From assembly GCA_035655395.1 (NCBI GenBank), contig DASRUP010000076.1, positions 1 through 43,596 of the forward strand: DNA of 43,596 nt, read 5' to 3'. Numbering within the stretch: the first letter of the stretch is position 1; every line of letters starts with the position of its first letter. Below, piece after piece: positions 1 through 13,076 of the stretch. Made by a program: the position numbers and the translations under genes. The notes below the pieces were generated by a model. That model did not search any database, had not been told where the DNA came from, and saw nothing but the letters and a program-made list of their open reading frames with translations. Source of the stretch: Minisyncoccota bacterium (GTDB taxonomy: Bacteria; Patescibacteriota; Minisyncoccia; Minisyncoccales; UBA10102).

Positions 1-594
1 CTGAAAGTTCCCTGTTTGCCACGACCCAGGTGCCGGCCCGGTAATGGTTACGTCTGGCGGAGGCGGAGGTGCTATGCAAACAGAACCAAAGTTGCCGACC
101 CCGTCGACCGCCTGCCCCGTGCCGGCAAGAACTTCTGTGCCATTATAATACAAGGAATAGTTTATACTATGAACTGGGCGAATATTTGATGGATTTGTAG
201 AAGCGCATGGGCTTAAGGTTCCCCAACATGCCCGATTAGCAGGGTTCGCTTCAAGTCCAAGACCTGACCCAGGATCGCCGTTTATGTGAATCCAGCGTAT
301 GGCTGAACCGGGCGTACCCTCAAGCACTCCCTTAAGCCCGCTATCAGTAACCACATCTCCAACATGAGCGCTTGCGGCGCATAAAGCGTCTGCGTTTACG
401 AAAGGAACGGCTCCATTACAACCATGTACTTCCGCCCCGTTTGGAAGTGTTCCTAGGAATTGCTCTGTGGTGCCGTCGGCGCAGCCGCTGGCCGGCTGGG
501 CGTGGACTTCTGCTGGCTGAATAGAAACAAAAATCTGCAGGGCGAGCAAAGATACACTGCATACGACAATACCTGCAACCAGAAATCGAAACAT
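1..594 (-). CDS. Glycine-rich surface protein paralog, first 198 codons only (gene continues past the left window edge)
   Basis: Hand translation of the minus strand from ATG 594..592 to position 1 gives an uninterrupted frame: MFRFLVAGIVVCSVSLLALQIFVSIQPAEVHAQPASGCADGTTEQFLGTLPNGAEVHGCNG...CIAPPPPPDVTITGPAPGSWQTGNFQ. It aligns block for block with the N-terminus of the 609..3803 protein. It is absent from the ORF track because it is truncated. Confidence 0.8.
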   Translation of the reverse strand, partial: MFRFLVAGIVVCSVSLLALQIFVSIQPAEVHAQPASGCADGTTEQFLGTLPNGAEVHGCNGAVPFVNADALCAASAHVGDVVTDSGLKGVLEGTPGSAIRWIHINGDPGSGLGLEANPANRACWGTLSPCASTNPSNIRPVHSINYSLYYNGTEVLAGTGQAVDGVGNFGSVCIAPPPPPDVTITGPAPGSWQTGNFQ

Positions 595-608
595 TATACT
601 ATTATAAT

Positions 609-3600
609 TTATCCGCATTGAATCTGCCACCAGGAACTGGTGCCGGTCCATATAGTAACGCCAAGAAGGTCGAGCGCAAAGTCAACGGCAACCCAAGCCC
701 CGTAAATAATAAGCAATGCAATAACCGTGGTAAAAATAATTCCTCTGCCCCTGTTTAAAAGAGCGGGGTTGCCCAGGTTTCCTATAATTATACTAAATCC
801 ACCCACCACGATCATAAGCGCGCCCAAAAGCATCACAATAGCAAAACCATTATTGAAACTCGAGGGGAAGAGCAAAAAAGTAATAATGTTGTGTACGAGC
901 GCAAATCCGTGGCACAGGGTGCATGGCTGGCTTTCGTCGAGTCCTGTGGTGAGGGGGTCGTCTGAATCCCTGCCGCACGGCACCAGCCCGCCCGTAAACG
1001 CGCTGTTGTAGCGCAGTATGGCCTCGCTAAAGTTGCCGGCCAGGTCTGTAGCTTGCGCGCGAATAAAGCATTTGCTTCCCGGCGAGCACCAGCCGGGAAT
1101 TAGTCCCATGTCGGTTAGCCCTGTGCCGCAAGCAGAAGGCCCTGTGTTATGGTCGGTCCACGTTCCTCCTCCGTCGTTTGAGCTGGAAAGGCTGCACGTG
1201 TCTATAAACGCGTCTGTGGCGTTGTACTTAATAGGAAAGTCTGCCGCCAGGTCTGATCCATCTGCGGGCGTCGGCGGTACGTCAAAACTTGCCACGGGTT
1301 TGGTATAGTCTATGGAAAAATCCCGTTCGTCTTGAACAGACGGCACTGTTGATTCTACCCAGCGAATAATAACTTGTCCGTTTCCAGAACGTACGCCCTG
1401 TTGGTGAGTGGTAGATCCTGTGATTTCATAGGCTGGGTCTACATAGCTGGAACCTCCGCCCCCGCCAGCACCACCGACAGCAGCATTGGTAGGAGTACCG
1501 CCACCCTGGCCTCCTCCTCCTCCGTAATACCCACCGCCTCCGCTGCCGCCAGAAAATGAGTCACCCTGTCCTCCCGTGCCAAAACTTCCGCTTGTTGCAG
1601 ATCCTCCTCCTGCGCTGCCTCCCTGATTATTTATAGTATCTCCGCCCCCGCCTCCGATCGAAGGCGAGGGAGCGGGTCTACTTCTAGCTTGATACCAACC
1701 AACATTATAGTCTACCGAACCGTTGCCTCCTTTACCGCCCATAAGTCCACCTCCGCTGCCGCCACTTCCTCCGCTGGCTAAATGAACGTCGTCAAATTCA
1801 ACAAACCCGTTGCCTCCTTCTCCTCCTCCGCCCGCGACAGCAATACGGCTTGCCCCTATTCTTATATCAGAAGCGCCTCCGCCTCCTCCTGGTCCGCCTC
1901 CGTTAAAACCTGAAGTTCCGTTTCCCCCCACGAAGATTTGAAGCACCTGTCCTGGCGTAAGGTTTTGTAAACGAGTGATAACATATCCTCCTCGACCTCC
2001 GCTTCCTCCGCTTGCTGGTAGGCCCGAGTAAAACTTATCAATACCCCTTTCCCCCTGGGCGCCCCACAGCTCAACTTCTATTTCTGAAACTCCTGGTGGC
2101 ACAGGCCAGGTTTGTACACCTCCTGTATAGGCAAAGGTTTGCGAAATTGGAGTGCTGGGCGGCTTTCCCACAATCCTTACATTGCAGGCGTTTTGCCCTT
2201 CCTGGATGCACCAGCCGGAAGCGCCGACCTGAACTGTTGCCGATTGATTAGCTCCGCAAGAGACTGTGCCTCGGTTTTGCCAGCCAACACCACCGTCGTT
2301 TGTTTCGATTTCACATACACCAGAAACAGTTGGCTGCCACGTAATGACTACCTGGCCGTTATCTGTTTGGTATCCTTGGGTATGTGTTGGGTTAAGACAC
2401 TTTGGTGGTTCGCAGTAGCTTGAGCCTCCCCCTCCTCCACTTCCTCCTTTGTCGTCAGAACTTCCGTCTTCATTGGTACCTCCTCCACCGCCTCCACCGC
2501 CGTACCAGCCTCCTCCTCCGCTGCCGCCATGGTAAAACCGAAATCCAGCATTGAATCTGCCACCCCCGCCACCTTGCCCAAACGAACCAGGGGTGCCCGC
2601 GAAGCCATTAGGCCAACCTAAACCTCCCCCACTTAGTTGGGTGCCGCCTTCTCCGCCAGTACCGCCCCATGTGCCAACACCAAAACCGCCACTACCAGGA
2701 AGGCCATTGGCACCCACAAGATCGCCGCCGGCACCACCACCCCCGCCCACGGAAGAACCAGGGCCGCTACCCCGACCACCTCCGCCTCCTGCTACCACAA
2801 GCCGACTGTTAAGCCCGGCAGGATCATCCCATGGTCCAGAAACGGTGCGTATGTCAGAGGCACCTCCACCTCCTTGACCCGGATTGGATGCACCTCCGAA
2901 CCCTCCGCCGTTAAAGCCTCCAGTTGGTCCTGCTCCAGCGCCTCCTACATAGATATTTAAGGTCTGCCCGCTCGGCACGGGAATGGTTGCCTGCACTCGG
3001 CCGCCAAGCCCACCTGTTGAGCTGCCGCCTTGCGCCCCTCGCACATCCACCGTAATTTCCGTAACGCCGGAGGGAACAGTCCAAGGTTGAGAATCTCCGG
3101 TATAGTCGAATGTTTGGCTTTGAGGAGGAGAAGTAGGAAAGGTGGCGTCGTACTGCACCTGAAAATCCCCGTTTTGCCATGAACTAGGCGCCGGCCCGGT
3201 AATGGTTACAGACGGCGGGGGTGGAGGTGTAATACAAATAGCGCCGTCGAGTGGAGAGCCTGAAGGGTAAGCATTGCCCCTGTTTCCAAGGACATTTGTT
3301 CCGTTGTAATAGAGAGAGTAGAGGGAACTAAGAATACCGTGCGCGGGACGAAAGGTCGCAATTGGTCCAAATGCCGAAGAACTCAACATAGTACAAGGAG
3401 CTTGTGTCCCCCAGCACAAGCCGACTGCTGGTTCTGGACCCCCCAACAAGGGCCCAGGGTCACCGTTCATATGAATCCAACGGCGTTCTGAACCGGTCGT
3501 ACTCTCGAGTGCGCTTTTAAGTCCGTTGTCTAAAACCACGTCGCCCACAGTCGCGCTTGGGGCGCAAAGAGAGTCTGCGTTTGCAAAAGTTACACTTCCG

Positions 3601-3803
3601 TTACATCCATGAACTGTTCTGCCGTCGGGGAGTGTGCTAAAATTCTGCTCGGTGGTGCCGTCGGCACAGCCGCTGGCGGGTTGGGCGTGGACTTCTGCTG
3701 GCTGGAGCGAAACAAAAACTTGCAGCGAGAGAAGAGTTACGCCGCATAATACCGTTGCTAAAACGAGAAATTGAAACCCTGTGTTTATCGCGGGGCGATG
3801 CAT
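609..3803 (-). CDS. 1064-aa secreted/anchored glycine-rich protein: signal peptide, Cys-containing N-domain, PPPPP linker, two Gly_rich-type modules, C-terminal LVPCG pilin-like two-TM module
   Basis: Single long ORF. N-terminal hydrophobic leader (FQFLVLATVLCGVTLLSLQVFV). Two copies of F[DA]YTG..Q.W.VP.GV.EI.V...GAQG followed by long G-runs and GGGGASDIR, matching the Pfam Gly_rich pattern as I recall it. The C-terminus reads GGLVPCG...CTLCHGF... plus two hydrophobic helices. Confidence 0.9.
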   Translation of the reverse strand: MHRPAINTGFQFLVLATVLCGVTLLSLQVFVSLQPAEVHAQPASGCADGTTEQNFSTLPDGRTVHGCNGSVTFANADSLCAPSATVGDVVLDNGLKSALESTTGSERRWIHMNGDPGPLLGGPEPAVGLCWGTQAPCTMLSSSAFGPIATFRPAHGILSSLYSLYYNGTNVLGNRGNAYPSGSPLDGAICITPPPPPSVTITGPAPSSWQNGDFQVQYDATFPTSPPQSQTFDYTGDSQPWTVPSGVTEITVDVRGAQGGSSTGGLGGRVQATIPVPSGQTLNIYVGGAGAGPTGGFNGGGFGGASNPGQGGGGASDIRTVSGPWDDPAGLNSRLVVAGGGGGRGSGPGSSVGGGGGAGGDLVGANGLPGSGGFGVGTWGGTGGEGGTQLSGGGLGWPNGFAGTPGSFGQGGGGGRFNAGFRFYHGGSGGGGWYGGGGGGGGTNEDGSSDDKGGSGGGGGSSYCEPPKCLNPTHTQGYQTDNGQVVITWQPTVSGVCEIETNDGGVGWQNRGTVSCGANQSATVQVGASGWCIQEGQNACNVRIVGKPPSTPISQTFAYTGGVQTWPVPPGVSEIEVELWGAQGERGIDKFYSGLPASGGSGGRGGYVITRLQNLTPGQVLQIFVGGNGTSGFNGGGPGGGGGASDIRIGASRIAVAGGGGEGGNGFVEFDDVHLASGGSGGSGGGLMGGKGGNGSVDYNVGWYQARSRPAPSPSIGGGGGDTINNQGGSAGGGSATSGSFGTGGQGDSFSGGSGGGGYYGGGGGQGGGTPTNAAVGGAGGGGGSSYVDPAYEITGSTTHQQGVRSGNGQVIIRWVESTVPSVQDERDFSIDYTKPVASFDVPPTPADGSDLAADFPIKYNATDAFIDTCSLSSSNDGGGTWTDHNTGPSACGTGLTDMGLIPGWCSPGSKCFIRAQATDLAGNFSEAILRYNSAFTGGLVPCGRDSDDPLTTGLDESQPCTLCHGFALVHNIITFLLFPSSFNNGFAIVMLLGALMIVVGGFSIIIGNLGNPALLNRGRGIIFTTVIALLIIYGAWVAVDFALDLLGVTIWTGTSSWWQIQCG
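3186..3803 (-). repeat. About 0.6 kb paralogous segment shared with 1..594 (5' coding regions of the two glycine-rich genes)
   Basis: Shared DNA strings, e.g. ccggcccggtaatggttac (33..51 and about 3190..3208) and ggcgtggacttctgctggctg (about 499..519 and about 3685..3705). Protein blocks QPAEVHAQPASGCADGTTEQ and TITGPAP are conserved. Confidence 0.7.
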
Positions 3804-3810
3804 TACTATA

Positions 3811-4620
3811 TTATAAATCGTTTGCGAGGTTTATCCAATCCTGCACAGACAATGTTTCCGCGCGGCGGGCGGGGTCAATGCTGTTTTTTCGCAAGATAGT
3901 TTCCATGTGTTCCCTTGGACGTTTCAGGCCGGCAGACAGGTTGCCTAACAGCTGTTTTCTGGGGTGGGTGAACCCCGCTTTTACCACGGAGAAAAACTTT
4001 TGCGCGTCAATATCCGGTTTTTCTTTGCGCGGGACAATATGGATAATGGCAGAATCCACATGGGGCTGGGGCCAAAACGATGTTTTCTTAATATATGAAA
4101 TAATTTTGGGCGTGGCGTAAAATTGCACCGAAACCGCCAATATGCTCATGTCCGGGGGTTTCGCGCAAATTCGTTGCGCAACCTCTTTTTGGATTATAAG
4201 CGTTATGGACTGCGGCCGGTTTTCCGCCTCGAGGAATTTTCTGATGGTCGGAGCACTAATATAGTATGGCAAGTTAGCAACTACCTTGTATGTTTGCTTT
4301 GGAACCTGAGTTTTGAGAGCGTCCCCATGAATGACTTCCACGTTTTTGAACTCTGCCAGTGTCCCCTTGAGGATTTCCACCATTTTCGCGTCTTTTTCAA
4401 CGGCCACCACTTTTTTTGCGTGCTTTGCCAATTCCTGGGTAAGGGTGCCAATGCCCGGCCCCACTTCCAAAACCGTGTCTTGCGGCTGAATGCTGGCGGC
4501 AACAACCATTTTTTGGACTATGTGGTCCTCGACAAGGAAATTCTGGCCCAAGCCGCGGCTTGGCTTTATGGTATGTTTCTGCAGCACGGTTTTTATAGTT
4601 TTGGAGGAAGCAAAATTCAT
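3811..4620 (-). CDS. rsmA: 16S rRNA (adenine1518/1519-N6)-dimethyltransferase RsmA/KsgA
   Basis: MNFASSKTIKTVLQKHTIKPSRGLGQNFLVEDHIV...VLEVGPGIGTLT is the KsgA signature. I start at the ATG at 4620 because the 121-codon upstream extension in the track overlaps the divergent M23 gene and looks non-coding. Confidence 0.9.
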   Translation of the reverse strand: MNFASSKTIKTVLQKHTIKPSRGLGQNFLVEDHIVQKMVVAASIQPQDTVLEVGPGIGTLTQELAKHAKKVVAVEKDAKMVEILKGTLAEFKNVEVIHGDALKTQVPKQTYKVVANLPYYISAPTIRKFLEAENRPQSITLIIQKEVAQRICAKPPDMSILAVSVQFYATPKIISYIKKTSFWPQPHVDSAIIHIVPRKEKPDIDAQKFFSVVKAGFTHPRKQLLGNLSAGLKRPREHMETILRKNSIDPARRAETLSVQDWINLANDL

Positions 4621-4656
4621 TGGTATTTGGTATATTGTACCCTGTGGATACAACGC

Positions 4657-4685
4657 TTGACCAGGGCCTTTGAGAAGAGTATAAA
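4657..4685 (+). promoter_or_regulatory. Sigma70-like promoter, TTGACC-17-TATAAA, for the LysM/M23 gene
   Basis: TTGACC at 4657..4662, a 17-nt spacer, TATAAA at 4680..4685. The start codon lies 5-11 nt downstream. Confidence 0.5.
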
Positions 4686-4696
4686 GGATAGTGCCT

Positions 4697-5743
4697 ATGA
4701 GAAAAGAGCGAGAAGAGCCTTCAAGTTCGATTAATCGTAGAGCGCGCAAACCCTTTTTCACCGTAGCTCTTGGAGCTATTTTTTTGTTGGCTCTGGCAGG
4801 TTTGGGAGCCACGGTATTCTCTGATTCTTCTGGGGTGGGAGCGCGTTTTTCGGCTCCCTTGCCCTCAACGTCTGCAATGCACCTGTATGCGAACCAGGCA
4901 GACGTAGCAGAAACCCCGGAATTCGTAACAGTAGGAGAAACAGGAGTTTTAGCTACCGCTCCGCCTGTTGCGGTAAGCCCCAAGGTTCTGGGAGCTATTA
5001 TTGGCGAAGCGAATTTCGCCCAGCAAAACAGAAGGGAGCTTCTTCATTATGCCGTGGAAGAGGGCGATACGATAAAAAGCCTTTCAGAACGGTTCGGCAT
5101 TTCGCAAAACACTATTCTTTGGGTAAACGAGCTTTCGAGCGTTTCTCCGCTTACTCTGGGCCAGGAACTGGTTATTTTGCCGGTATCTGGCGCTCTGCAC
5201 TTAGTGCGGCCAGCAGACACGTTAAGCGAGATTGCCTTATGGTACCAGGGAGATGCCGAGCAAATCATGGAGGCAAACGGGATAGCTTCCGCCAAAGATA
5301 TCTTTGTGGGGGACTTCTTGATAATTCCCGGGGGGATTATGCCAAAAAGCCTGCCCGTAGGGCGTTTAACTCCTTTGGCAAATTCCTACTTTATTTATCC
5401 GGTATCTCGCTCGCACAAATTAAGCCAGGGGCTGCATGCCTTTAACGCAGTTGACCTAAGCAACGGCCAGTGCAACGAACCTGTGTATTCTGCCGCGGGC
5501 GGAACCGTGCAGAAAGTGGGCTATCACAGCGTGGCGGGAAACCATGTGCGGGTTTTGCACCCCAACGGAGTGGTAACCTTTTACGGCCATCTTTCGGGCC
5601 AAACAGTGGAGGTAGGACAAAAAGTTTCCCAGGGCGCAATAGTGGGCTATACCGGCCACACAGGCTATACTATTCCTGCCGGTCCTGACGGATGCCACCT
5701 GCACTTTGAGGTGCGCGGCGCATCAAATCCCTTTGTGAAATAA
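4697..5743 (+). CDS. Membrane-anchored LysM-LysM-M23 (LytM-type) peptidoglycan endopeptidase
   Basis: TM segment FFTVALGAIFLLALAGL. Two LysM-like repeats (YAVEEGDTIKSLSERFGISQNTILWVN and HLVRPADTLSEIALWYQGDAEQIMEANG). M23 core HVRVLHPNGVVTFYGHLS...GYTGHTG...HLHFEV. The start may be GTG 4691 or ATG 4697 (AAGGA sits 8 nt upstream of the ATG). Confidence 0.9.
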   Translation: MRKEREEPSSSINRRARKPFFTVALGAIFLLALAGLGATVFSDSSGVGARFSAPLPSTSAMHLYANQADVAETPEFVTVGETGVLATAPPVAVSPKVLGAIIGEANFAQQNRRELLHYAVEEGDTIKSLSERFGISQNTILWVNELSSVSPLTLGQELVILPVSGALHLVRPADTLSEIALWYQGDAEQIMEANGIASAKDIFVGDFLIIPGGIMPKSLPVGRLTPLANSYFIYPVSRSHKLSQGLHAFNAVDLSNGQCNEPVYSAAGGTVQKVGYHSVAGNHVRVLHPNGVVTFYGHLSGQTVEVGQKVSQGAIVGYTGHTGYTIPAGPDGCHLHFEVRGASNPFVK

Positions 5744-5772
5744 AAAAACGGGGCAGAGGCCCTGTTTTTTTA
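5742..5772. terminator. Bidirectional intrinsic terminator between convergent genes
   Basis: A-run, then an 8-bp stem (aacggggc / gccctgtt) with an AGAG loop, then a T-run (aaaaaaacggggcagaggccctgttttttt). Confidence 0.6.
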
Positions 5773-5781
5773 TGTGCTTAC

Positions 5782-6135
5782 TTATTTGCACTTGCCGCAG
5801 GTGGCAGCTTCCGGAGAAATTTGGAGGCGTTCTGTTGCAATAGGGTTGCCGCAGTTTTGGCAAGTGCCCCAAGTGCCCTTTTCTATACGGTCTAAGGCGT
5901 CGTTTATGTCTTTGAGCTTGGTTTCCAAGCTGTGTTCCAAGTGTAGCCGGGTGGAATATTCTTCTACTTCATCTGCTGCTTCCTCGAGGTTGCTTCCGGG
6001 TATTCTGGGATATTTGGAGTCCCAGTCGCCTTTTACGTTGGGGTCTTTGGTTGCAAAAGAAGCGAGCTCCGATTCTAAGCGTTCCTTTTCTTTTTCAAGG
6101 CGGGTCTTTAGTTCCCCGATATCTGTTGTTTCCAT
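5782..6135 (-). CDS. DksA/TraR-family C4 zinc-finger protein
   Basis: Coiled-coil N-terminal part and a C-terminal CQNCGNPI...ATCGKC four-Cys motif. Confidence 0.85.
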   Translation of the reverse strand: METTDIGELKTRLEKEKERLESELASFATKDPNVKGDWDSKYPRIPGSNLEEAADEVEEYSTRLHLEHSLETKLKDINDALDRIEKGTWGTCQNCGNPIATERLQISPEAATCGKCK

Positions 6136-6144
6136 AAAGTTTTC

Positions 6145-8520
6145 CTATTTATTTTGTGAAAGATGATTGAATTGCAGAGGTTCTTCTGAAGGGAAGAAAA
6201 ACTTTTTCTTGAGGTCGAGTACGCGGTTTGCAGAAGCCTCAATTTGTTTGCGCAGTGTTTCGTCGGTTGCAGCCTGTTGCAAAAGCAGTTTGTGCGCCTG
6301 GGTGGCCTCTGGGGTCTCTGCAAACATTAGTATATTCATTCCTGCACGTAAAGGCAAGAAAACGATTTCTTCAAAGGAATAGTTGTCAAGAAGGGCGGGC
6401 TGTGCAAGGTCGTCAGAAAGGATAATGCCTTGAAACCCGAGCTCTTCTCGAATGAGAGACATGCCTTCTATAGAGAAGCTAAATGGGTAGTTTTTGTCCA
6501 CGGTAGAGTAAATAACGTTGGAAGTAAGAAGAAATTCCGGTTCAGAGGAAAGCGCAAATGCGAAAGGAGAAATGTCGGGAAACTCCTGTACGGTAGCAAG
6601 TTTCTTCTCTGGGTTAAAAGAAATGCTGCCGTATCCCGGGAAATGCTTGAGCGTAGAGAGGATATTCTCTGATTTTTGGCCCGCTAAAAGCGCGCGAGCC
6701 AAACGCCCGGCTTCCAAACCCTCGGTTTGAAAGGTGCGCTCAAACAAAAAATCATGTGGCCCCGTGGTGTCCAGCACAGGAGCAAGGTTGAGGTTCACGC
6801 CAAGACTTTTGAGTTCGCGAGCGCGTTCCTTGCCCACCGCGTAGGCTTGAGCAGGGGTTTCAATAGTAGATTGGGCGGTTTTTTCCTTTCCAAACTGAAT
6901 TCTTGAGATAAGTCCTCCTTCTTGATCTACCGCGACAAGCAGAGGAAGAGAGCTGTATTCGAGAGATAACGCCTGCAGCTCTTGCGTAAGTTTTTGGAGT
7001 TGTTGGGAGTCTGTAATGTTTCTTGCTAAAAGGAGAACGCCCCCTGGTCGGAGACGTTTCATGAGTTCTTCAAGTTCTGGGGTAAGGTACGTGCCTTCGA
7101 ATCCTATGAGTAATACCTGGCCTATTGCTTGCTCCAAAGAAAGGTTTTGAGGAGGTTTAAAAAGGCCTGGACTGTTTTCTACTGCGAGTATCTGATTTTG
7201 CAATAAGGCACCCGGAGAATTTTGCAGCTCGTCAATAGCTTCTTTTATCGCCTCAAAAGAAGAAGCGAGAATAAAGCGGTTGTTCACTATTGTGTACACA
7301 ATGCCTACGTCCTGCGTGGAGAACGTCTGAAAACGAACCTCTACCCCGTTATACGACGTGCTGCGGAAAGATTTTGTATATCCGTTTCCCGGATTTCCCC
7401 AAAAGTCGCGTAAGGGGACGAAAGCTTGTTCCATTTGAGGCTCCCATGCGCGCAAACTTTGCCAGAGCGCCGTAGGGTCTGCAACTTCCGAGACTATGCC
7501 AAAGCGGTTACCTCTTTCATAAGAGTAGAGGAAGAAAAACGAGGTTTGTTGAAGTTGGTTGCTTACTGCTTCGGGAACCGGAACTTCAAAAATTCCAAAG
7601 AAAGAGTTCGCGCTCTCCAGTGATGTATTGTCTTGTCTGTTGCGAAAGACGAGCTTGGTAAAACCCTCCTGTTGATCTGCCTCCAACGATTGTTTGAGGG
7701 TACTGGTAAGGTCTGCCTTTTCTGAAAACAGAAGGGTAGAAGTATGGGCAACACCAAGAGGATCAGAAGGAGTGGGCGCGGGTTGCGCTTGAGGAGGGGG
7801 TTGAGGGGAAGGGCCGCTGGCTGGCGGAGGTGTGGGCGTTGGGGTGGTTTGCTCTTGAGAGAAAAACTGGGAAAGGAAAGGAATTTCCACCGATTGATTT
7901 TGGAAAACAAACCAGTAGAGAAATAGGCCGATATTGAGAACGATGAACGCAAAAATAATGACTATGATAGCCCGAACCAAAACTCTTTTACTTCGGGAAG
8001 GGGGCGTGGGAAGAGCTTCAAACCTGTTTTCCTCGCCAGGAGGCAAAATGGAGCTTTGGATGTTGCGCATTCGTTCTTCCTTTCTTGTTTCTTCCCGCTG
8101 CTTTGCCGCCAAAGCTGCCGATCTGATTTTCGCCACGGCGTCTTTCTCTCGCTGGGCGTTTTGTTGCGCTTTCAGTTGCGCGATGCGCTGTTGTTCTTTT
8201 TTTGCCTCTTCCTCGCGAAGCCGGGCAATGTCTTTTGCCATGGTGCGTACTTCGCCGCGTTCCAGATATTCGCGTTTTTGTTCCGGCCGGAAGGGCTCTT
8301 GTTGCCTGGGCGGCATTGGTTTTTCTGGAGGCTGAATCGGTGGTGCAGGGCTGCCAGATGGCGTAGGAGTTGGCCGTTCTGGCTGCGATGGCCGGGGAAA
8401 AGGAGGGGGAGAAACTGGCCTCGATGGTGGTGCCGGAGTTGGCCTGGGGGATTCTGGAGAAGGCTCTATTGGGATATTGGGGGGAGGAGGTTGCTTGCGA
8501 ACAAAATTGTCTTCTTGCAT
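6145..8520 (-). CDS. 791-aa membrane-anchored protein with a proline-rich N-terminus, an unknown middle domain and a C-terminal glycoside hydrolase family 3 (NagZ-like) domain
   Basis: GH3 motifs LLIGFEG, VAVDQEGG and KHFPGYG. TM helix AIIVIIFAFIVLNIGLFLYWFVF. PxP-rich first ~75 residues. Confidence 0.85.
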   Translation of the reverse strand: MQEDNFVRKQPPPPNIPIEPSPESPRPTPAPPSRPVSPPPFPRPSQPERPTPTPSGSPAPPIQPPEKPMPPRQQEPFRPEQKREYLERGEVRTMAKDIARLREEEAKKEQQRIAQLKAQQNAQREKDAVAKIRSAALAAKQREETRKEERMRNIQSSILPPGEENRFEALPTPPSRSKRVLVRAIIVIIFAFIVLNIGLFLYWFVFQNQSVEIPFLSQFFSQEQTTPTPTPPPASGPSPQPPPQAQPAPTPSDPLGVAHTSTLLFSEKADLTSTLKQSLEADQQEGFTKLVFRNRQDNTSLESANSFFGIFEVPVPEAVSNQLQQTSFFFLYSYERGNRFGIVSEVADPTALWQSLRAWEPQMEQAFVPLRDFWGNPGNGYTKSFRSTSYNGVEVRFQTFSTQDVGIVYTIVNNRFILASSFEAIKEAIDELQNSPGALLQNQILAVENSPGLFKPPQNLSLEQAIGQVLLIGFEGTYLTPELEELMKRLRPGGVLLLARNITDSQQLQKLTQELQALSLEYSSLPLLVAVDQEGGLISRIQFGKEKTAQSTIETPAQAYAVGKERARELKSLGVNLNLAPVLDTTGPHDFLFERTFQTEGLEAGRLARALLAGQKSENILSTLKHFPGYGSISFNPEKKLATVQEFPDISPFAFALSSEPEFLLTSNVIYSTVDKNYPFSFSIEGMSLIREELGFQGIILSDDLAQPALLDNYSFEEIVFLPLRAGMNILMFAETPEATQAHKLLLQQAATDETLRKQIEASANRVLDLKKKFFFPSEEPLQFNHLSQNK

Positions 8521-8577
8521 TCTGGTATTTTCTCATTTCCAAGAAACATTTACCAGCAATGCACCTGTGGAAAACTT

Positions 8578-10683
8578 TTACTGCTCCTTTGCCTCCTTGA
8601 GAGAAAGGTTAATCCTTCCCTGTGCGTCGATTTCGATTACTTTTACGGGAATGATGTCGCCGAGCTTTACAATATCCTGTACCTTGTTTACGCGGTAGGG
8701 AGCTAACTGTGAAATATGCACAAGTCCTTCTTGGCCTCCTCCAACCTCCACAAACGCGCCGAATTCCATAATCCTCTTTACCTTGCCCTGAAAAATTTCT
8801 CCTACTTGCACTTCCCGGGTAAGGTTTCTCACGGTTTCCAGGGCCTGTTCCAGTTGTGCCGCATCCTGCCCCGTTACAAAAACAAGGCCGGTTTCTTCAA
8901 TGTCGATTTGCACGTCGAATTCATCGATAATTTTGTTAATCGTTTTGCCCCCAGGGCCGATAAGAAGCCCTATTTTTTCTGGGTTGATTTGCAAAGTGGC
9001 AATCTTGGGAGCCCAGGGAGAAAGCTCTTTTCTGGGTTCGGCAAGTATTTTGGCAATAACTTCGTCTAAAATATGGGAATGGGCTTTCTTGGCTTTGGCT
9101 AATGTTTCTTTGAATATGTGTTCGGTAATTCCCCGGACTTTTACGTCCAGCTGAATTGCGGTAACACCTTGTTTGGAACCCGCCACTTTAAAATCCATGT
9201 CGCCGTGATGATCTTCCGGGCCCTGAATGTCGGTTAACAGTTTATATTCCCCGTTTTGTCCTAGCATGAGCCCCATGGAAATTCCTGCCACGGGCCGTTT
9301 AATGGGAACTCCGGCATCCATTAAGGCAAGCGTGGAAGAGCATACGGAAGCCATAGAGGTAGAGCCGTTGGAAGATACCACTTCTGTTACAATACGAATG
9401 GTGTAAGGAAATTCTTCCGGGGTTGGGATAACGGGAAACAAGCCTTTTTCTGCGAGCATGCCATGTCCTATCTCTCGTCGGCCAGGGCCTCGGAGCATTT
9501 TTACCTCTCCTGGCGCATAAGGGGGAAAGTTGTAGTGGTGCATAAAACGCTTTTTGCCAATGAACTCCATGCCTTCCAAAAGGCGTTGGTCGCCGGGTGC
9601 GCCAAGCGTCAAAATAGAAAGGGTTCTGGTTTGCCCCCGTTCAAAAAGACCAGAACCATGCGTTCTGGGAAGGAACCCGGCCAAAGCAGATAATGGTCTG
9701 ATCTCGTCGAGTTTCCGGTCGTCCACGCGCTGATTTCTTTCCAGGGCTCCCTTGTGGACAATGCGATCGGTTTCTTCGTCGAAAAAGGAATCAACATGCG
9801 AAAGAACTTCGGCGTTTTCGTACTTTTCTTTGGTAAAAGCCGTAAACTCTTTTTTTACTTCGTCCACCGCTGCCATTCTGGCCTGCTTATCTCCCTGAAA
9901 AAGAGCGTGTTCGAGTTTGGGTTCGAGCCAATTTTGGAGTTCCTTGCGCACTGTTTCTTCTATAGGCGAGCGTTCCTCGTGCGCGATTTTTTCTTTGCCA
10001 AGCTTCCCGATAAGGTCTTCTTGAAACGCAATAAGGGCTTCCAAATGCGGCTTGGCAAATGCAAGCGCCTGCTCATATACTTCTTCTGACACTTCATCGG
10101 ACTCGGCCTCGATCATGTTGAACAGGAGTTCCTGCCCTTCTTTTACTGCGGCCAGCACGAAATCAAGGTCGCTTTGTCCGCGCTCTTCGTAAGTGGGGTT
10201 TACCACAAACTGGCCGTTTATTCTTCCTACGCGCATCCCAGCCAAAGGCCCTTTCCAGGGAATGTCGGAAAGGGAAAGCGCAATAGAGGCGCCCAAAAGC
10301 CCTGCGACATCAGGATCGTTTTGTGCGTCCCAGGAAAGGCAGGTGGTAATTATCTGTACTTCTCGTTTGAAGTTTTTGGGGAACAAGGGGCGAATCGCGC
10401 GGTCAATAAGTCGGGCGCAAATTATGGCTTCGTCGGAAGGGCGTCCCTCGCGGCGAATAAAGCGAGAACCCAAGATTCTGCCTGCGGCATAAAACCGTTC
10501 TTCGTAGTCAACAATAAGAGGAAAAAATCCCTGGTTGGAAGTTTCAGAGCGCGACATAACGGCAGTAACGTAGGTGAGCGTTTCTCCCGTCCGGATAAGT
10601 ACGTTCCCGTTTGCCTGCTCCGCCCAGTTGGGGAATTCAATGGTAATTTCTTTCTCTCCAAGCTTTACGGTGTATTTGTTCAT
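8578..10683 (-). CDS. pnp: Polyribonucleotide nucleotidyltransferase (PNPase)
   Basis: 701 aa with two RNase PH domains, a KH domain and an S1 domain (e.g. GPGGKTINKI, GEIFQGKVKRIMEFGAFVE). Confidence 0.97.
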   Translation of the reverse strand: MNKYTVKLGEKEITIEFPNWAEQANGNVLIRTGETLTYVTAVMSRSETSNQGFFPLIVDYEERFYAAGRILGSRFIRREGRPSDEAIICARLIDRAIRPLFPKNFKREVQIITTCLSWDAQNDPDVAGLLGASIALSLSDIPWKGPLAGMRVGRINGQFVVNPTYEERGQSDLDFVLAAVKEGQELLFNMIEAESDEVSEEVYEQALAFAKPHLEALIAFQEDLIGKLGKEKIAHEERSPIEETVRKELQNWLEPKLEHALFQGDKQARMAAVDEVKKEFTAFTKEKYENAEVLSHVDSFFDEETDRIVHKGALERNQRVDDRKLDEIRPLSALAGFLPRTHGSGLFERGQTRTLSILTLGAPGDQRLLEGMEFIGKKRFMHHYNFPPYAPGEVKMLRGPGRREIGHGMLAEKGLFPVIPTPEEFPYTIRIVTEVVSSNGSTSMASVCSSTLALMDAGVPIKRPVAGISMGLMLGQNGEYKLLTDIQGPEDHHGDMDFKVAGSKQGVTAIQLDVKVRGITEHIFKETLAKAKKAHSHILDEVIAKILAEPRKELSPWAPKIATLQINPEKIGLLIGPGGKTINKIIDEFDVQIDIEETGLVFVTGQDAAQLEQALETVRNLTREVQVGEIFQGKVKRIMEFGAFVEVGGGQEGLVHISQLAPYRVNKVQDIVKLGDIIPVKVIEIDAQGRINLSLKEAKEQ

Positions 10684-11210
10684 CGTGTAATTTTAAGAGG
10701 CCAACGAGACTTTTTTAACAGATATTTATCTTCCTCTTCTTCCAAGTCAACGAATTCATCGGCCACCTCCCGAAGCCTTGAAGAAGTTGATTTTCCAAAT
10801 GCCATAACTTCCACGCGTTTTCCGTGGTTTTTGAGGTATTCTACAAGAGGCACATAGTCGCCGTCGCCCGATACCAGCACTACCGCGTCTGCGCTGTCTG
10901 CGGTTTTAATGGCGTCGACAGCAATGCCAACGTCCCAGTCCGCCTTTTTGAGGCCTCCGTAATACTCCTGAAGATCTTTTACGCGAGTTTCAATGCCTAC
11001 GCTCGTGAGGGCGTCGAAAAACGGCTTTTCTTCTCCGGTTTTCGTGCGCACTACATAAGCAAACGCACGGATAAGTTTTCTGCCTGCAACCGCGTTTTTT
11101 ACGATTTCGCGGAAGTTTACGCGGGCCTGGTGAAGGTTTTTTGCCGAGTGGTACAGGTTTTGAACATCGATAAAAACAGTAACCCGCTGATCTTTATTTT
11201 TGAGGCTCAT
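10680..11210 (-). CDS. NYN/LabA-like (PIN-fold) predicted RNase domain protein
   Basis: VFIDVQNLYHSAKNL...VVLVSGDGDYVPLVEYLK pattern typical of NYN/DUF88. Its stop overlaps the pnp start (ATGA). Confidence 0.8.
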   Translation of the reverse strand: MSLKNKDQRVTVFIDVQNLYHSAKNLHQARVNFREIVKNAVAGRKLIRAFAYVVRTKTGEEKPFFDALTSVGIETRVKDLQEYYGGLKKADWDVGIAVDAIKTADSADAVVLVSGDGDYVPLVEYLKNHGKRVEVMAFGKSTSSRLREVADEFVDLEEEEDKYLLKKSRWPLKITR

Positions 11211-11222
11211 GTCGAAATGGCC

Positions 11223-11489
11223 TTATTTTTTTAGGCCGGTTTTTTTCAAAAGAGATTTATATCGTTTTTCGTCCTCCCGTTTGAGGTGCGCTAAAAGAGT
11301 GCGGCGCCTGGCCACCATCTTTAAAAGACCTCGTTTGGAGTGAAAATCCTTGGCGTGCTTTTTTAAATGGGAAAGCAACTTCCGGATTTCTTCAGACAAA
11401 ATCCCAACTTGCACTTCAGGAGAGCCTGAATCGATAGCGTGAGTTTTGTATTTCTCTATGATTTTTTGCTTGTCTTTGGTTTGAAGCAT
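11223..11489 (-). CDS. rpsO: 30S ribosomal protein S15
   Basis: 88 aa. GSPEVQVGILSEEIRKLLSHLKKHAKDFHSKRGLLKMVARRRTLL is the canonical S15 sequence. Confidence 0.95.
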   Translation of the reverse strand: MLQTKDKQKIIEKYKTHAIDSGSPEVQVGILSEEIRKLLSHLKKHAKDFHSKRGLLKMVARRRTLLAHLKREDEKRYKSLLKKTGLKK

Positions 11490-11496
11490 TAGGCGT

Positions 11497-11524
11497 ATTA
11501 TAGCAGAAAAGCAAAAATTTGCAA
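11497..11524 (-). promoter_or_regulatory. Promoter TTGCAA-16-TATAAT giving a (near) leaderless rpsO mRNA
   Basis: On the minus strand: TTGCAA 11524..11519 and TATAAT 11502..11497. Only 7 nt separate the -10 from ATG 11489, and there is no SD. Confidence 0.55.
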
Positions 11525-11529
11525 GTGGG

Positions 11530-11600
11530 TGCCCCCAGAAGGAATCGAACCCTCATCAACGGATTAAGAGTCCGCAGCTTTACCATTAAGCTATGGGGGC
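11530..11600 (-). tRNA. tRNA-Lys (anticodon CTT)
   Basis: Hand-folded cloverleaf: GCCCCCA/TGGGGGC acceptor, anticodon loop CTCTTAA, T-loop TTCGATT. No clean encoded CCA. Confidence 0.9.
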
Positions 11601-11649
11601 TTTTGGCGAGGTTTATTATATAAGGAAAATCGCTACTTTGCAACCTTTT

Positions 11650-12192
11650 CTATGGTTCTCTTGCAGCTTTTAATGCCTTGGCGTACCACAGGAGTTCCCC
11701 AAAGAATTTTTGGAGGCGTTCGGGGTAAGAGGGGTCGGTTATGTTGTCCTGTTCGTCGAACAGGGTTTTTACGTTGGAGAAATATACCGCGGTTCGAATG
11801 GGCACCATTTGCAGCTCTATAGCCACAAGCCGCAGCTTTTCTACCATGCGCACTCCGCCCATGCCGCCACTCGCCACGCCGCAAACGCCTAGGGGCTTTC
11901 GGTTATACTCTTCATAGAGCATATCGAGCATCATTTTGAGTTCGCCTGGATACCCGTGATTATACTCTGGAGCTACAATAATAAGGCCGTCGGCCCTGCT
12001 CACTTTTTCTGAAAACCTTTTTGCAGGCTCCTGCTCTTCGGTGTCGTCGGTAGCTGCAATTCTGTAGTCTCGAACGTCAATAAGCTCGGTTTCCACGCCT
12101 TCCTGCTTTTGGAATTCTCGCAACACAAAATTCGCCGCCTTCTCTGATCTTCGACCTTCTCTCGCTGTGCCTAGGATTATGGGAATATACAT
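11650..12192 (-). CDS. NAD(P)H-dependent FMN reductase family protein
   Basis: MYIPIILGTAREGRRSEK...IIVAPEYNHGYPGELK matches the flavodoxin-like FMN_red pattern. Confidence 0.85.
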   Translation of the reverse strand: MYIPIILGTAREGRRSEKAANFVLREFQKQEGVETELIDVRDYRIAATDDTEEQEPAKRFSEKVSRADGLIIVAPEYNHGYPGELKMMLDMLYEEYNRKPLGVCGVASGGMGGVRMVEKLRLVAIELQMVPIRTAVYFSNVKTLFDEQDNITDPSYPERLQKFFGELLWYAKALKAAREP

Positions 12193-12207
12193 ATGATTAT
12201 TACAATT

Positions 12208-12759
12208 TTATAAGTTCAGATTCTTTTCATCTTTGCTACTCAACGAACCCAGGACAGCCGTAAGCGTTGCGACCTCATTTTTTGTAATATCCCAAGGGAC
12301 CTCGATCACAAATTTTTGTGAGTTGCCCCTAAGAGGAAGGTCAATCCGGACTATGGCTTGAGCATTTGCTATTTCGTGGTCTTCAATACTTCCTTTGCCT
12401 TTCTGAACTGCGTTGGGGATTGATCGTTTTGTTCGCTGCACCACCCTAGGTGTCCAGCTCGCCATTTTGGTTGGGTCGATGCCGTATGTTTTATAATCCT
12501 TAAGGACCTTTTGGACGCGGGATTTGTAGGTAGCCAAAGAAGTATCGGTGAAGTCCTTTCCTCCATGCTTTGAGCAAACACTTTTGTATATTTGTTCAAT
12601 ATTTTCTTCGAACTTATCGACAGAATTGAGCTCGTCTTCGTTGAGCTCTTCCTGGAAAAGCTGCAAGGCTCGTTTTATGCCGTGGCCTGTGTTTTTGGGA
12701 TATTTTCGGTTTCGGACCGCTTTATCTACGAAGGCGATCAAATCTTTAAAATTATTCAT
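12208..12759 (-). CDS. Hypothetical protein (183 aa), AT-rich orphan
   Basis: ORF with GGAG 9 nt upstream of ATG 12759. The TTG at 12852 used by the track abuts the SD and follows a terminator, so I disfavour it. No family recognised. Confidence 0.55.
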   Translation of the reverse strand: MNNFKDLIAFVDKAVRNRKYPKNTGHGIKRALQLFQEELNEDELNSVDKFEENIEQIYKSVCSKHGGKDFTDTSLATYKSRVQKVLKDYKTYGIDPTKMASWTPRVVQRTKRSIPNAVQKGKGSIEDHEIANAQAIVRIDLPLRGNSQKFVIEVPWDITKNEVATLTAVLGSLSSKDEKNLNL

Positions 12760-12869
12760 GCGAGATTGCTCCAAAATAAACTTTTTAGATGACCTTGATG
12801 GGATGTACTCAATATACCGTATCAACCCTATCTTTTCAAATGGATACCCCAATCTCCTCTCTCTAGATA

Positions 12870-12895
12870 GAAAAAAACACGCGTTGAAACGTGTA
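12870..12895 (-). terminator. Intrinsic terminator downstream of tRNA-Ala
   Basis: The minus strand reads ACACG-loop-CGTGT followed by TTTTTTT. Confidence 0.6.
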
Positions 12896-13075: not shown

Positions 13076-13076
13076 T

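What the first reader, a model, noticed from the sequence alone, without database searches (positions are those of the whole stretch)
612..992. A complete LVPCG...CxxC two-TM pilin-like module fused to the C-terminus of a ~940-aa passenger
Seen in the sequence: the last 127 residues read GGLVPCGRDSDDPLTTGLDESQPCTLCHGFALVHNIITFLLF...AIVMLLGALMIVVGGFSIIIGNLGNPALL...IIFTTVIALLIIYGAWVAVDF.

From memory, this matches the small (~120 aa) LVPCG-motif proteins abundant in CPR genomes and classified as T4SS_pilin (VirB2/TrbC-like, PF18895). Those are normally stand-alone pilins.

Inference: here the module sits behind a giant glycine-rich passenger. Either the passenger is displayed on, or caps, a conjugative-type pilus-like polymer, or the module has been repurposed as a membrane anchor. 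No VirB4, VirB6 or VirD4 gene lies in this window.
Basis: partly seen in the sequence, partly recalled or inferred. Interest (0 to 1): 0.65.

Follow-up and report, generated by a model that had tools for sequence, protein, structure and literature searches.

The report
Conjugative-type pilin module carrying a giant passenger
An ultrasmall (CPR/Paceibacterota) bacterium encodes a 1064-residue surface protein that ends in a complete type IV secretion pilin-like membrane hairpin, and a near-identical contig shows a type IV secretion gene cluster just past the window edge, so this may be the host-contact part of that machine.

Summary
Window 609..3803 (-) is one 1064-aa ORF, and its last 127 residues (612..992) form the LVPCG...CxxC two-helix module.

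The module misses Pfam PF18895 on its own (11.9 bits; cut-off 26.6). It does belong to that family by chaining: phmmer finds 1433 cluster representatives. Its closest relatives (47-53% identical) pass the PF18895 cut-off, and some also hit TrbC/VirB2.

- These modules are not normally stand-alone. Of the 150 nearest representatives, 89 carry extra extracellular domains (PKD, LamG, VWA, GRD, SLT, M23) at either end.
- The lack of T4SS genes is a window-edge effect. A contig 99.6% identical over 13.7 kb continues with a second passenger-plus-module gene, then VirB6/TrbL, PrgI/VirB3-like, TraC-like and VirB4-like genes on the same strand.

The passenger holds two ALK-type glycine-rich domains, a fold also seen in phage fibres.

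Best reading: a modular VirB2-like pilin that displays a binding head at the T4SS. Whether it polymerises, caps a fibre or only anchors the passenger is unresolved. I found no paper describing such fusions.

The parts
609..3803 (-). Whole gene (1064 aa plus stop): leader, N-terminal domain, glycine-rich domain 1 (GRD1), small beta domain, glycine-rich domain 2 (GRD2), small beta domain, pilin-like module
   Evidence: ORF list. The identical protein P0159 lies on two other contigs.
3681..3803 (-). About 41-aa N-terminal leader (MHRPAINTGFQFLVLATVLCGVTLLSLQVFVSLQPAEVHA|QP). It is a hydrophobic Sec-type signal with a VHA site. The cleavage site is inferred, not tested.
   Evidence: Hydropathy peak at residues 4-36. 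AF2 helix 8-32. The same leader is conserved in the paralog, P0002, P0003 and P0007; in P0007 it directly precedes LVPCG.
3123..3680 (-). N-terminal Cys-containing domain of unknown fold (residues about 42-227) with a PPPPP linker. It is shared with the downstream paralog.
   Evidence: BLASTP of target against paralog: residues 10-290 are 50% identical. No Pfam hit. AF2 confidence is low.
2334..3122 (-). Glycine-rich domain 1 (GRD1; ALK/LTK-type GRD, residues about 228-490)
   Evidence: PF12810 hit of 63.8 bits in two stretches. AF2 pLDDT 75-97. Foldseek to human ALK GRD 7lrz, E=3.4e-7.
2154..2333 (-). Small Cys-rich beta domain with an Asp-box-like motif TNDGGVGW (residues about 491-550)
   Evidence: Motif search. 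AF2 strands 495-516.
1356..2153 (-). Glycine-rich domain 2 (GRD2; residues about 551-816)
   Evidence: PF12810 best stretch 576-811; PF21722 stretch 561-815. AF2 is confident here.
993..1355 (-). Pre-module domain with the Asp-box-like motif SNDGGGTW (residues 817-937). It runs into the module with no hydrophobic stretch or recognisable cleavage motif (...ILRYNSAFT|GGLVPCG).
   Evidence: Conserved in P0001 and P0002 (69% identity over the last 245 aa). AF2 confidence is low.
612..992 (-). LVPCG...CxxC pilin-like module (residues 938-1064). Its parts are an acidic Cys-bearing N-segment, amphipathic helix 963-978, TM1 989-1008, a basic loop (NLGNPALLNRGR), TM2 1013-1046, and a Trp-rich tail ending in C1063.
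   Evidence: phmmer gave 1433 relatives. Relatives hit PF18895/TrbC. AF2 pLDDT 87.2, pTM 0.72. Charges are -4 / +2 / -2.
780..839 (-). TM helix 1 of the hairpin (residues 989-1008; contains the invariant G1002)
666..767 (-). Helix 2 of the hairpin (residues 1013-1046; a basic start, then the hydrophobic core IIFTTVIALLIIYGAWVAV)
1..594 (-). Start of a tandem paralog, 14 nt after the target's stop, with the same leader and N-terminal domain. It runs off the window. On L007 it is 831 aa and also ends in an LVPCG module.
   Evidence: Translation. L007 ORF and its C-terminus. hhalign of that C-terminus against the module family: probability 99.4%, E=3.8e-21.

Best explanation
The gene encodes a modular VirB2-like (T4SS_pilin family) protein that works with the type IV secretion machine encoded next to it.

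Inferred steps:
- The roughly 41-aa leader drives Sec export.
- The roughly 900-aa passenger folds outside the cell. It contains an N-terminal domain, two ALK-type glycine-rich domains and two small Asp-box beta domains.
- The C-terminal module inserts as an N-out/C-out helical hairpin with its basic loop in the cytoplasm.
- Its four conserved cysteines all lie outside and probably form disulfides that tie the N-segment to the C-tail.
- In that form it enters the same membrane pool as ordinary small CPR pilins.
- The VirB6/VirB3/VirB4 apparatus engages it, and the passenger is presented at the T4SS as the binding head towards the host cell.

Shown here:
- Family membership of the module by chaining.
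- The hairpin fold and its charge pattern.
- The GRD fold of the passenger.
- The tandem pair of such genes directly upstream of the T4SS genes on a 99.6%-identical contig.
- The frequent occurrence of such fusions among the module's nearest relatives.

Not shown:
- Export and disulfide formation.
- Any interaction with the T4SS.
- Whether the protein polymerises, caps or decorates a fibre of small pilins encoded elsewhere, or stays membrane-bound at the machine.
For: Module family:
- phmmer finds 1433 relatives.
- The closest stand-alone relatives exceed the PF18895 cut-off: P0012 32.0, P0014 32.0, P0016 34.4 and P0025 27.7 bits. So does the VWA fusion P0008, at 28.2 bits.
- 58 of 63 stand-alone and 59 of 87 multi-domain relatives hit PF18895; 12 and 9 hit TrbC/VirB2, best E=1.2e-6.
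- The window module keeps every invariant or near-invariant residue of the family. That argues for the same constraints as in small pilins.

Fold and topology:
- AF2 gives pLDDT 87.2 with helices at 32-47, 58-77 and 82-115 plus a C-terminal beta hairpin.
- Segment charges are -4, +2 and -2.

Genomic context:
- L007 is 99.6% identical to window 76..13810.
- On the same strand it continues with the paralog (also ending in a module), a 182-aa protein and a 1261-aa TrbL/VirB6 (PF04610, 34.1 bits against a cut-off of 25.9).
- Next come a 138-aa PrgI/VirB3-like protein (weak hit), a 223-aa TraC-like protein and a 625-aa protein with DUF87 and P-loop_TraG hits, i.e. VirB4-like.
- Two JGI contigs reproduce the stretch from the paralog's end through VirB6 to the PrgI-like gene at 100% identity.
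- No small stand-alone module gene lies in about 53 kb around the pair.

Passenger:
- PF12810 hit of 63.8 bits.
- Foldseek to ALK/LTK GRD structures, E=3.4e-7, and to the cyanophage Pam3 fibre, E=4.7e-3.
- The same domain sits in many Bacteroidota surface proteins that carry T9SS sorting domains.

Literature:
- CPR T4SS clusters carry VirB2-like pilin arrays, essential in Southlakia, and no PrgB-type adhesin was detected in them (PMC12102498, PMC10633639, PMC12857230).
Against: - The module itself fails the PF18895 cut-off.
- Foldseek of the module model against the PDB found no VirB2/TraA pilin (best E=1.5). A family profile found no pilin among PDB sequences.
- No CPR T4SS pilus has ever been seen, so 'pilin' is itself an inference for the whole family (PMC12857230).
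- Close relatives P0001 and P0002 have no T4SS gene within about 10 kb. The pilin arrays in L005, L009 and L010 have none in the sequence held around them either.
- The T4SS neighbourhood is seen on a 99.6%-identical contig, not in the window. Window bases 1-75 diverge from that contig.
- If every subunit carried the 100-kDa passenger, the fibre would have to be a brush about 25 nm wide. This is my own rough estimate, assuming F-pilus-like geometry.
Confidence: 0.55

Rival explanations
1. Generic membrane anchor. In CPR bacteria the two-helix module has been co-opted as a T4SS-independent way to hold extracellular proteins on the cell membrane. It would be a lineage-specific counterpart of LPXTG/sortase anchoring or the T9SS C-terminal sorting domain. 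The T4SS neighbourhood would then be coincidental.
For: - The module is fused at either end to very diverse extracellular domains, including enzymes: PKD, LamG, VWA, He_PIG, SLT, M23 and CBM60.
- Homologous GRD passengers elsewhere carry other C-terminal sorting domains, such as PF18962.
- Several relatives, including the closest fusions P0001 and P0002, have no T4SS gene within about 10 kb or within the sequence held around them.
Against: - Here two such genes lie in tandem on the same strand directly upstream of VirB6, VirB3-like and VirB4-like genes.
- Fused modules keep all the residues conserved in small pilins, including four cysteines and the glycine of the GG motif in TM1. A plain anchor would not need these.
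- The published survey reports pilin genes near virB4 in 1135 of 1948 CPR assemblies (PMC12102498).
Confidence: 0.27
2. Cleaved precursor. The protein is cut at or near the ...SAFT|GGLVPCG junction. That would yield an ordinary small pilin plus a released or separately attached passenger, which acts as a giant pro-region or a secreted partner.
For: - In stand-alone relatives the mature N-terminus is predicted to begin right at GLVPCG, directly after the signal-peptidase AxA site.
- In P0007 the lineage-specific leader is followed directly by LVPCG.
- From established knowledge, VirB2/TrbC/TraA pilins are extensively processed.
Against: - No hydrophobic segment or conserved cleavage motif precedes the module in fused relatives. 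The junctions read SAFTGG, CPKAGG, PEQYG, ASVEGG and MPTIGG.
- Many relatives carry the extra domains after the module instead (47 of 150). N-terminal cleavage cannot explain those.
Confidence: 0.1
3. Artefact. The fusion would come from a frameshift, a misassembly across glycine-rich repeats, or a chance hydrophobic tail.
For: - The region is repeat-rich, and assemblies break nearby. Window bases 1-75 diverge from L007 and L008, and L007 has a gap of N bases inside the paralog.
Against: - The identical 1064-aa ORF occurs in three assemblies.
- Homologous fusions exist in other genomes.
- The module similarity is highly significant, down to E=3.9e-59.
Confidence: 0.02

Closest known systems
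CPR/Patescibacteria VirB2-like pilins (Pfam PF18895 T4SS_pilin), e.g. the essential six-gene pilin array in the T4SS locus of Southlakia epibionticum
   Same: - Same sequence family by chaining.
- Same signal-then-LVPCG layout, with two hydrophobic helices and a basic loop.
- Same kind of location next to VirB6, VirB3 and VirB4 genes.
- Also occurs as tandem, sequence-divergent copies: the two modules here are 28% identical.
   Different: - The described pilins are small (about 110-190 aa), and the papers discuss them as such.
- Here roughly 900 aa of folded extracellular domains sit between the leader and the pilin module.
- The module itself falls below the Pfam cut-off.
- No small pilin gene is visible in the surrounding 53 kb.
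TrbC/VirB2/TraA conjugative pilins of diderm T4SS (PF04956; F, T and RP4 pili)
   Same: - Helix-loop-helix hairpin with a basic loop and both ends outside.
- A long leader peptide.
- 21 relatives of the module hit PF04956 directly.
   Different: - No direct sequence or Foldseek match for this module.
- It has four conserved extracellular cysteines and a C-terminal beta hairpin instead of cyclisation or acetylation.
- The host is a monoderm with no outer-membrane core complex.
- It carries a giant passenger.
Modular type IV pilins of Streptococcus sanguinis (PilB with a vWA module, PilC with a lectin module; PMC8179133, PMC9934059)
   Same: The design principle is the same: a pilin module fused to a bulky adhesive module, so that the filament machine displays an adhesin. 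The organism is likewise a monoderm.
   Different: It is an unrelated pilin superfamily, built on a class III signal and a single N-terminal helix, and assembled by a type IV pilus (T4P) machine. In the S. sanguinis pilins described in those papers the extra module follows the pilin module; here it precedes it. This is an analogy only.
Glycine-rich-domain surface proteins of Bacteroidota with T9SS sorting domains, and the ALK/LTK receptor GRD
   Same: Same passenger domain: PF12810 at 63.8 bits; Foldseek to 7lrz at E=3.4e-7; many homologues listed.
   Different: Those proteins end in PF18962 T9SS sorting domains, or in a receptor kinase. None of the 120 listed homologues except P0002 shares the pilin module.
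T4SS adhesins PrgB (Gram-positive) and VirB5 (pilus tip)
   Same: The proposed role is the same: target-cell contact for a T4SS.
   Different: There is no sequence relationship. PrgB is sortase-anchored, and VirB5 is a separate soluble tip subunit. The published CPR survey reports that no PrgB-type adhesin was found in CPR (PMC12102498).

Membership tests
PF18895 T4SS_pilin (CPR VirB2-like pilins) | The protein's own score against the Pfam model reaches the gathering cut-off (26.6 bits) | tested here: not met
   11.9 bits, E=0.25. Module residues 50-104 align to profile positions 17-69 of 71.
PF18895 T4SS_pilin (CPR VirB2-like pilins) | Significant homology to proteins that are themselves members (chained membership) | tested here: met
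   - phmmer E-values from the module: 1.0e-34 to P0008, 4.3e-29 to P0012, 5.8e-28 to P0014, 1.2e-26 to P0016 and 3.2e-23 to P0025.
- Those proteins score 27.7-34.4 bits on PF18895.
- 58 of 63 stand-alone and 59 of 87 multi-domain relatives hit the family.
- 9 of 14 database relatives carry a precomputed PF18895 annotation.
PF18895 / VirB2 superfamily | Two hydrophobic helices joined by a short basic loop, with both ends extracytoplasmic | tested here: met
   Hydropathy peaks at 981-1016 and 1019-1051. AF2 helices 989-1008 and 1013-1046, pLDDT 87. Charges are -4 outside, +2 in the loop and -2 in the tail. The topology itself is inferred.
PF18895 / VirB2 superfamily | Structural match to solved conjugative pilins | tested here: inconclusive
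   Foldseek against the PDB: best E=1.5, and no pilin among the hits. Short helical hairpins are weak Foldseek queries. A profile search of PDB sequences returned only signal-peptide noise.
PF18895 / VirB2 superfamily | Encoded with T4SS machinery (VirB4, VirB6, VirB3) | tested here: met
   Not in the window. On the 99.6%-identical contig L007, TrbL/VirB6 (34.1 bits), PrgI-like, TraC-like and VirB4-like genes follow within 3.3-9.6 kb on the same strand. JGI contigs confirm part of this stretch.
PF18895 / VirB2 superfamily | Small mature protein that begins right after a cleaved leader | tested here: not met
   About 896 residues lie between the predicted leader and the module. This is the feature that makes it a variant.
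PF18895 / VirB2 superfamily | Polymerises into a pilus or channel with phospholipid | not testable with these tools
   No multimer modelling was available, and no CPR T4SS pilus has been observed (PMC12857230).
PF12810 ALK_LTK_GRD (passenger) | Pfam score above cut-off, and the TNF-like/polyglycine fold | tested here: met
   63.8 bits against a cut-off of 24.5, in two stretches; PF21722 at 33.9 bits. Foldseek hits 7lrz, 7nx0 and 7nx1 at E around 1e-7, probability 1.00.
Type IV (T4P) pilins | Class III signal / N-terminal methylation motif followed by a single hydrophobic helix | tested here: not met
   No N_methyl hit in this protein. True T4P pilins with that motif are encoded elsewhere in the window, at 31453-33393.
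Sortase (LPXTG) or T9SS C-terminal sorting signals | LPXTG plus a TM segment and basic tail, or a PF18962 domain at the C-terminus | tested here: not met
   There is no LPXTG near the C-terminus. The only near-matches are LPGSG at residue 368 and LPASG at 595, both inside the GRDs. There is no PF18962 hit.

The most novel reading that the evidence does not exclude
CPR type IV secretion systems display their missing adhesins by fusing them to the VirB2-like pilin itself. Under this reading, modular conjugative-type pilins like this one are polymerised, or cap a short fibre, at the VirB6 platform. The fibre would then be studded or tipped with host-recognition heads: GRD, lectin, PKD, VWA and even peptidoglycan hydrolases. 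Tandem, recombining paralogs would supply host-range variation. This would be a second, independent invention of the modular-pilin principle, in a different filament superfamily.
Probability: 0.3. Interest if true: 0.8.

Novelty: new variant of a known kind. Interest (0 to 1): 0.6.

Why it matters
CPR/Patescibacteria make up a large share of bacterial diversity, and all cultivated members live attached to host cells. Their T4SS and its pilin array are essential in the one genetically tested species (Southlakia). What the system does, and how it contacts the host, is unknown, and no adhesin has been found for it.

Pilin modules covalently joined to large binding or lytic domains, encoded at the head of a T4SS cluster, give a concrete and testable candidate for that contact element.

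They also show that PF18895 should not be searched for only among small proteins. In the nearest 150 representatives the fused forms outnumber the stand-alone ones. Surveys restricted to small proteins, and arguments about pilin copy number based on them, would then be incomplete.

The practical lesson for this scan is that the apparent absence of T4SS genes was a window-edge effect.

Tried and rejected
- **Word-index homology search with the module alone:** no hits. The exhaustive phmmer search was needed.
- **NCBIfam scan of the protein, the module and relatives:** no pilin model matched.
- **Family profile against PDB sequences:** it matched only PsaF signal peptides through 'GLVPC', which is noise.
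- **Foldseek of the module model against the PDB:** nothing significant. I treat this as uninformative, not as evidence against.
- **The search for related loci with family alignments A1 and A2:** The single-protein scan gave one locus, L006.
- **First look-up of the window protein by exact sequence:** reported not on record. The cluster representative P0159 then located it.
- **Cysteine co-variation to infer disulfide pairing:** 139 of 152 modules have all four Cys, which is too little variation to decide. The paralog lacks both C964 and C1063, which only hints that those two pair.
- **Metagenome scan with the VirB6 protein:** it returned short identical contigs only. L014 shares just 163 bp, so nothing beyond VirB4 could be seen.
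- **T4P pilin, sortase signal and T9SS signal:** considered and rejected (see the membership rows).
- **Promoter and terminator scans:** consensus matches only; not used as evidence.
Full report
**1. The observation**

Window 609..3803 on the minus strand is a single 1064-codon ORF with an ATG start. The protein is 23% glycine. It has one N-terminal hydrophobic segment (residues 4-36) and a C-terminal block with two strong hydrophobic segments (981-1016 and 1019-1051), preceded by a weaker one at 961-979. The coordinates and the description are therefore right. It is the only LVPCG module in the window.

**2. What the module is**

PF18895 T4SS_pilin scores only 11.9 bits (E=0.25) against a cut-off of 26.6, although the aligned part is the right one: the two helices, profile positions 17-69 of 71. 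NCBIfam has nothing, and the word-index search found nothing.

An exhaustive phmmer search of 1.84 billion cluster representatives found 1433 relatives at E<=1e-3, 292 at E<=1e-10 and 10 at E<=1e-30.

An alignment with 63 stand-alone relatives (A1) shows the family layout:
- A signal peptide comes first, and GLVPCG follows directly after the AxA site.
- An acidic stretch leads to CxxCH.
- An amphipathic helix, two hydrophobic helices around a G-x-P...K/R loop, and a Trp-rich tail ending in Cys complete it.

The window module keeps every invariant or nearly invariant position.

Scanning the relatives one by one gave these results:
- 58 of 63 stand-alone relatives hit PF18895 (best E=4.7e-11), and 12 hit PF04956 TrbC/VirB2.
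- 59 of 87 multi-domain relatives hit PF18895, and 9 hit TrbC (best E=1.2e-6).
- The relatives closest to the window module pass the curated cut-off: P0012 32.0, P0014 32.0, P0016 34.4, P0025 27.7 and P0008 28.2 bits.

So the module is a diverged member of the T4SS_pilin/VirB2-like superfamily by chained homology. It is not a member by its own score.

AlphaFold2 with A1 gives a confident model (pLDDT 87.2, pTM 0.72). It has helices at 963-978, 989-1008 and 1013-1046 (protein numbering) and a small C-terminal beta hairpin.

Net charges are -4 before the helices, +2 in the loop and -2 in the tail. By the positive-inside rule this gives an N-out/C-out hairpin, which fits a Sec-exported passenger. 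It also places all four conserved cysteines outside the cell. Those cysteines are present in 139 of 152 modules.

Foldseek against the PDB found nothing significant and no pilin, and a profile search of PDB sequences gave only noise. I count the structural-match test as inconclusive.

**3. 'Normally stand-alone' is wrong**

Among the 150 best representatives, the architectures are:

| Architecture | Count |
|---|---|
| Stand-alone | 61 |
| Module at the N-terminus, followed by an extension | 47 |
| Module at the C-terminus, after a passenger | 30 |
| Module internal | 12 |

Some of the shorter proteins may be gene fragments. The sample is also biased towards relatives of a fused query.

The added domains are typical extracellular binding or lytic modules: PKD, Laminin_G_3, He_PIG, VWA, beta-propellers, GRD, fn3, CBM60, SLT and M23. 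Fused modules conserve the same residues as small ones. Because both ends of the hairpin face outwards, fusions at either end are topologically sensible.

**4. The passenger**

Pfam finds PF12810 ALK_LTK_GRD (63.8 bits, two stretches) and PF21722. A full-length AF2 model is confident only for the two GRDs, at about 228-490 and 551-816. Foldseek matches human ALK/LTK GRD structures (7lrz E=3.4e-7, probability 1.00) and, more weakly, the cyanophage Pam3 fibre (E=4.7e-3).

Each GRD is followed by a small Cys-rich domain with an Asp-box-like motif: TNDGGVGW at residue 501 and SNDGGGTW at 875.

GRD homologues are abundant in surface proteins of Bacteroidota, where they end in T9SS sorting domains. 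The GRD is therefore a common displayed domain that takes lineage-specific C-terminal devices.

The leader (M.R.LV...LLALQ.FVSL.P.EV.A) is conserved in the target, its paralog, P0002 and P0003. It is also conserved in P0007, where it directly precedes LVPCG. It looks as if the passenger was inserted between a pilin's leader and its mature part.

**5. The surroundings**

Inside the window the neighbours are housekeeping genes: KsgA, a LysM-M23 peptidase, a DksA-type zinc finger, GH3, PNPase, NusA, Tig, ClpP and RNase Y. There is also a complete type IV pilus locus at 28454-37170. No T4SS family is present.

The window is cut inside a tandem paralog that starts 14 nt after the target's stop.

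The identical protein (P0159) lies on ENA scaffold ANAN16-1_SAMN03842431-S001_METAG-scaffold_4014, fetched as L007. L007 matches window 76..13810 at 99.6% identity. Beyond the window edge, on the same strand, L007 continues as follows:

| L007 position | Size | Identification |
|---|---|---|
| 13210-15705 | 831 aa | Paralog; also ends in an LVPCG module (hhalign probability 99.4%, E=3.8e-21) but lacks two of the four Cys |
| 15889-16437 | 182 aa | Has an N-terminal hydrophobic segment ending in Cys (lipoprotein-like; my reading of the sequence) |
| 16466-20251 | 1261 aa | TrbL/VirB6 (PF04610, 34.1 bits; cut-off 25.9) |
| 21706-22122 | 138 aa | PrgI/VirB3-like (weak, E=0.004) |
| 22141-22812 | 223 aa | 'TraC-like' (PF26593) |
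| from 22816 | 625 aa | DUF87 plus P-loop_TraG hits, i.e. VirB4-like |

Two JGI contigs reproduce the stretch from the paralog's end through VirB6 to the PrgI-like gene at 100% identity. A family HMM finds no small pilin gene in the roughly 53 kb covered by the window plus L007. The two fusions therefore occupy the place where CPR T4SS loci usually carry their pilin array (PMC12102498, PMC10633639).

Three cautions apply:
- This is a near-identical contig, not the window itself.
- Window bases 1-75 diverge from it. Bases 15-51 resemble the target's own Ig-like segment at 89% identity. That suggests recombination between the paralogs, or an assembly break.
- Other relatives have no T4SS gene within reach: P0001 and P0002, and the gyrA-SBP-pilin arrays in L005, L009 and L010.

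**6. Mechanism**

Best reading (0.55): a modular VirB2-like pilin.
- It is exported by Sec.
- It is held by an N-out/C-out hairpin that is a true T4SS_pilin-family module.
- The adjacent VirB6/VirB3/VirB4 machine engages it.
- It presents two GRD heads to the host cell.

The homology, fold, topology logic, passenger fold and synteny rest on tool results. The export, disulfides, interaction with the T4SS and any polymerisation are inferred.

My rough geometric estimate, assuming F-pilus-like parameters, is that a fibre built only of such subunits would be a brush about 25 nm wide. That is conceivable in a monoderm, which has no outer-membrane ring. Sparse incorporation, capping, or a membrane-bound role at the machine are equally open.

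Rivals:
- A T4SS-independent anchor (0.27). The promiscuous fusions and the T4SS-free contexts of relatives favour it.
- A cleaved precursor (0.10). The fact that small relatives begin at LVPCG favours it. The absence of a junction motif and the many C-terminal extensions disfavour it.
- An artefact (0.02). Three assemblies and the orthologous fusions contradict it.

**7. Comparison with what is known, and novelty**

The module belongs with the CPR VirB2-like pilins. It differs in carrying a passenger of about 900 aa.

The nearest design analogue is the modular type IV pilins of Streptococcus sanguinis (PMC8179133), which belong to an unrelated filament superfamily.

The CPR T4SS survey and the 2025 T4SS review treat the pilins as small proteins, and the survey states that no PrgB-type adhesin was found. 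I found no paper describing pilin-passenger fusions. That absence covers only the searchable library, and domain-architecture databases very likely already list such architectures.

I rate it a new variant of a known kind, with interest 0.6.

Noticed in passing
window 28454-37170 (+): A complete type IV pilus (T4P, not T4SS) locus. It holds PilB (T2SSE plus MshEN), PilC (T2SSF), two proteins with N_methyl prepilin motifs, a PilX_N protein, PilM and PilN. A histidine kinase and response regulator pair precedes it at 26953-28442.
   Followed up: partly
window 1-75 versus L007/L008: The window stops matching the 99.6%-identical contigs at base 76. In the window the paralog continues with PPPPPDVTITGPAPGSWQTGNFQ, and bases 15-51 are 89% identical to the target's own 3173-3209. 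On L007 it continues differently. This points to recombination between the tandem paralogs, or an assembly break in repeats.
   Followed up: partly
L005 10001-11221; L009 6717-9610; L010 7093-9680: In three other Paceibacterota-type contigs, arrays of 3-6 PF18895 genes sit directly downstream of gyrA and an SBP_bac_1 solute-binding protein gene. No VirB4 is in reach. In L009 the array members are 289-341-aa fusions, one of them with PG_binding_1. The relatives P0001 and P0002 have an SBP_bac_5 gene just downstream. The recurrent link between solute-binding proteins and pilin genes is unexplained.
   Followed up: partly
window 3681-3803 (-) and relatives P0002, P0003, P0007: An unusually long leader (about 33-41 aa) is conserved in sequence (LLALQ.FVSL.P.EV.A). 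It is shared by fused and unfused module proteins of this lineage. This recalls the long leaders of conjugative pilins and may mark a dedicated insertion or processing route.
   Followed up: partly
L007 15330-15705 (paralog module): The paralog's module has lost two of the four family cysteines together: the second Cys of CxxC and the C-terminal Cys. This hints that those two pair with each other. The two modules are only 28% identical even though the N-terminal domains are 50% identical.
   Followed up: partly
window 22346-26894 (-): Four consecutive ORFs of 203, 675, 294 and 266 aa have no Pfam family at E<=0.001. The three longest also lack any credible hit at E<=0.1 (best: Vps62, E=0.019, for the 675-aa ORF). 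The 203- and 675-aa ORFs overlap by 164 nt, so a start or a frame may be miscalled.
   Followed up: no
window 37443-40340 (+): A 965-aa protein combines a DUF2339 polytopic membrane domain with C-terminal thrombospondin type 3 (calcium-binding) repeats. It lies directly after the T4P locus.
   Followed up: no
window 4691-5743 (+): A LysM-LysM-M23 peptidoglycan peptidase is encoded two genes upstream of the target on the opposite strand. It could serve as the cell-wall-opening (VirB1-like) function for the neighbouring machine. Some module relatives carry M23 or SLT domains fused directly to the module.
   Followed up: no
L007 16466-20251: The VirB6/TrbL-like protein is an 'extended' form. About 350 aa form the membrane domain, followed by roughly 900 hydrophilic residues that include a Gly/Asn/Pro-rich low-complexity stretch. 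L014, an unrelated 30-kb contig, shares exactly 163 bp with that stretch.
   Followed up: no
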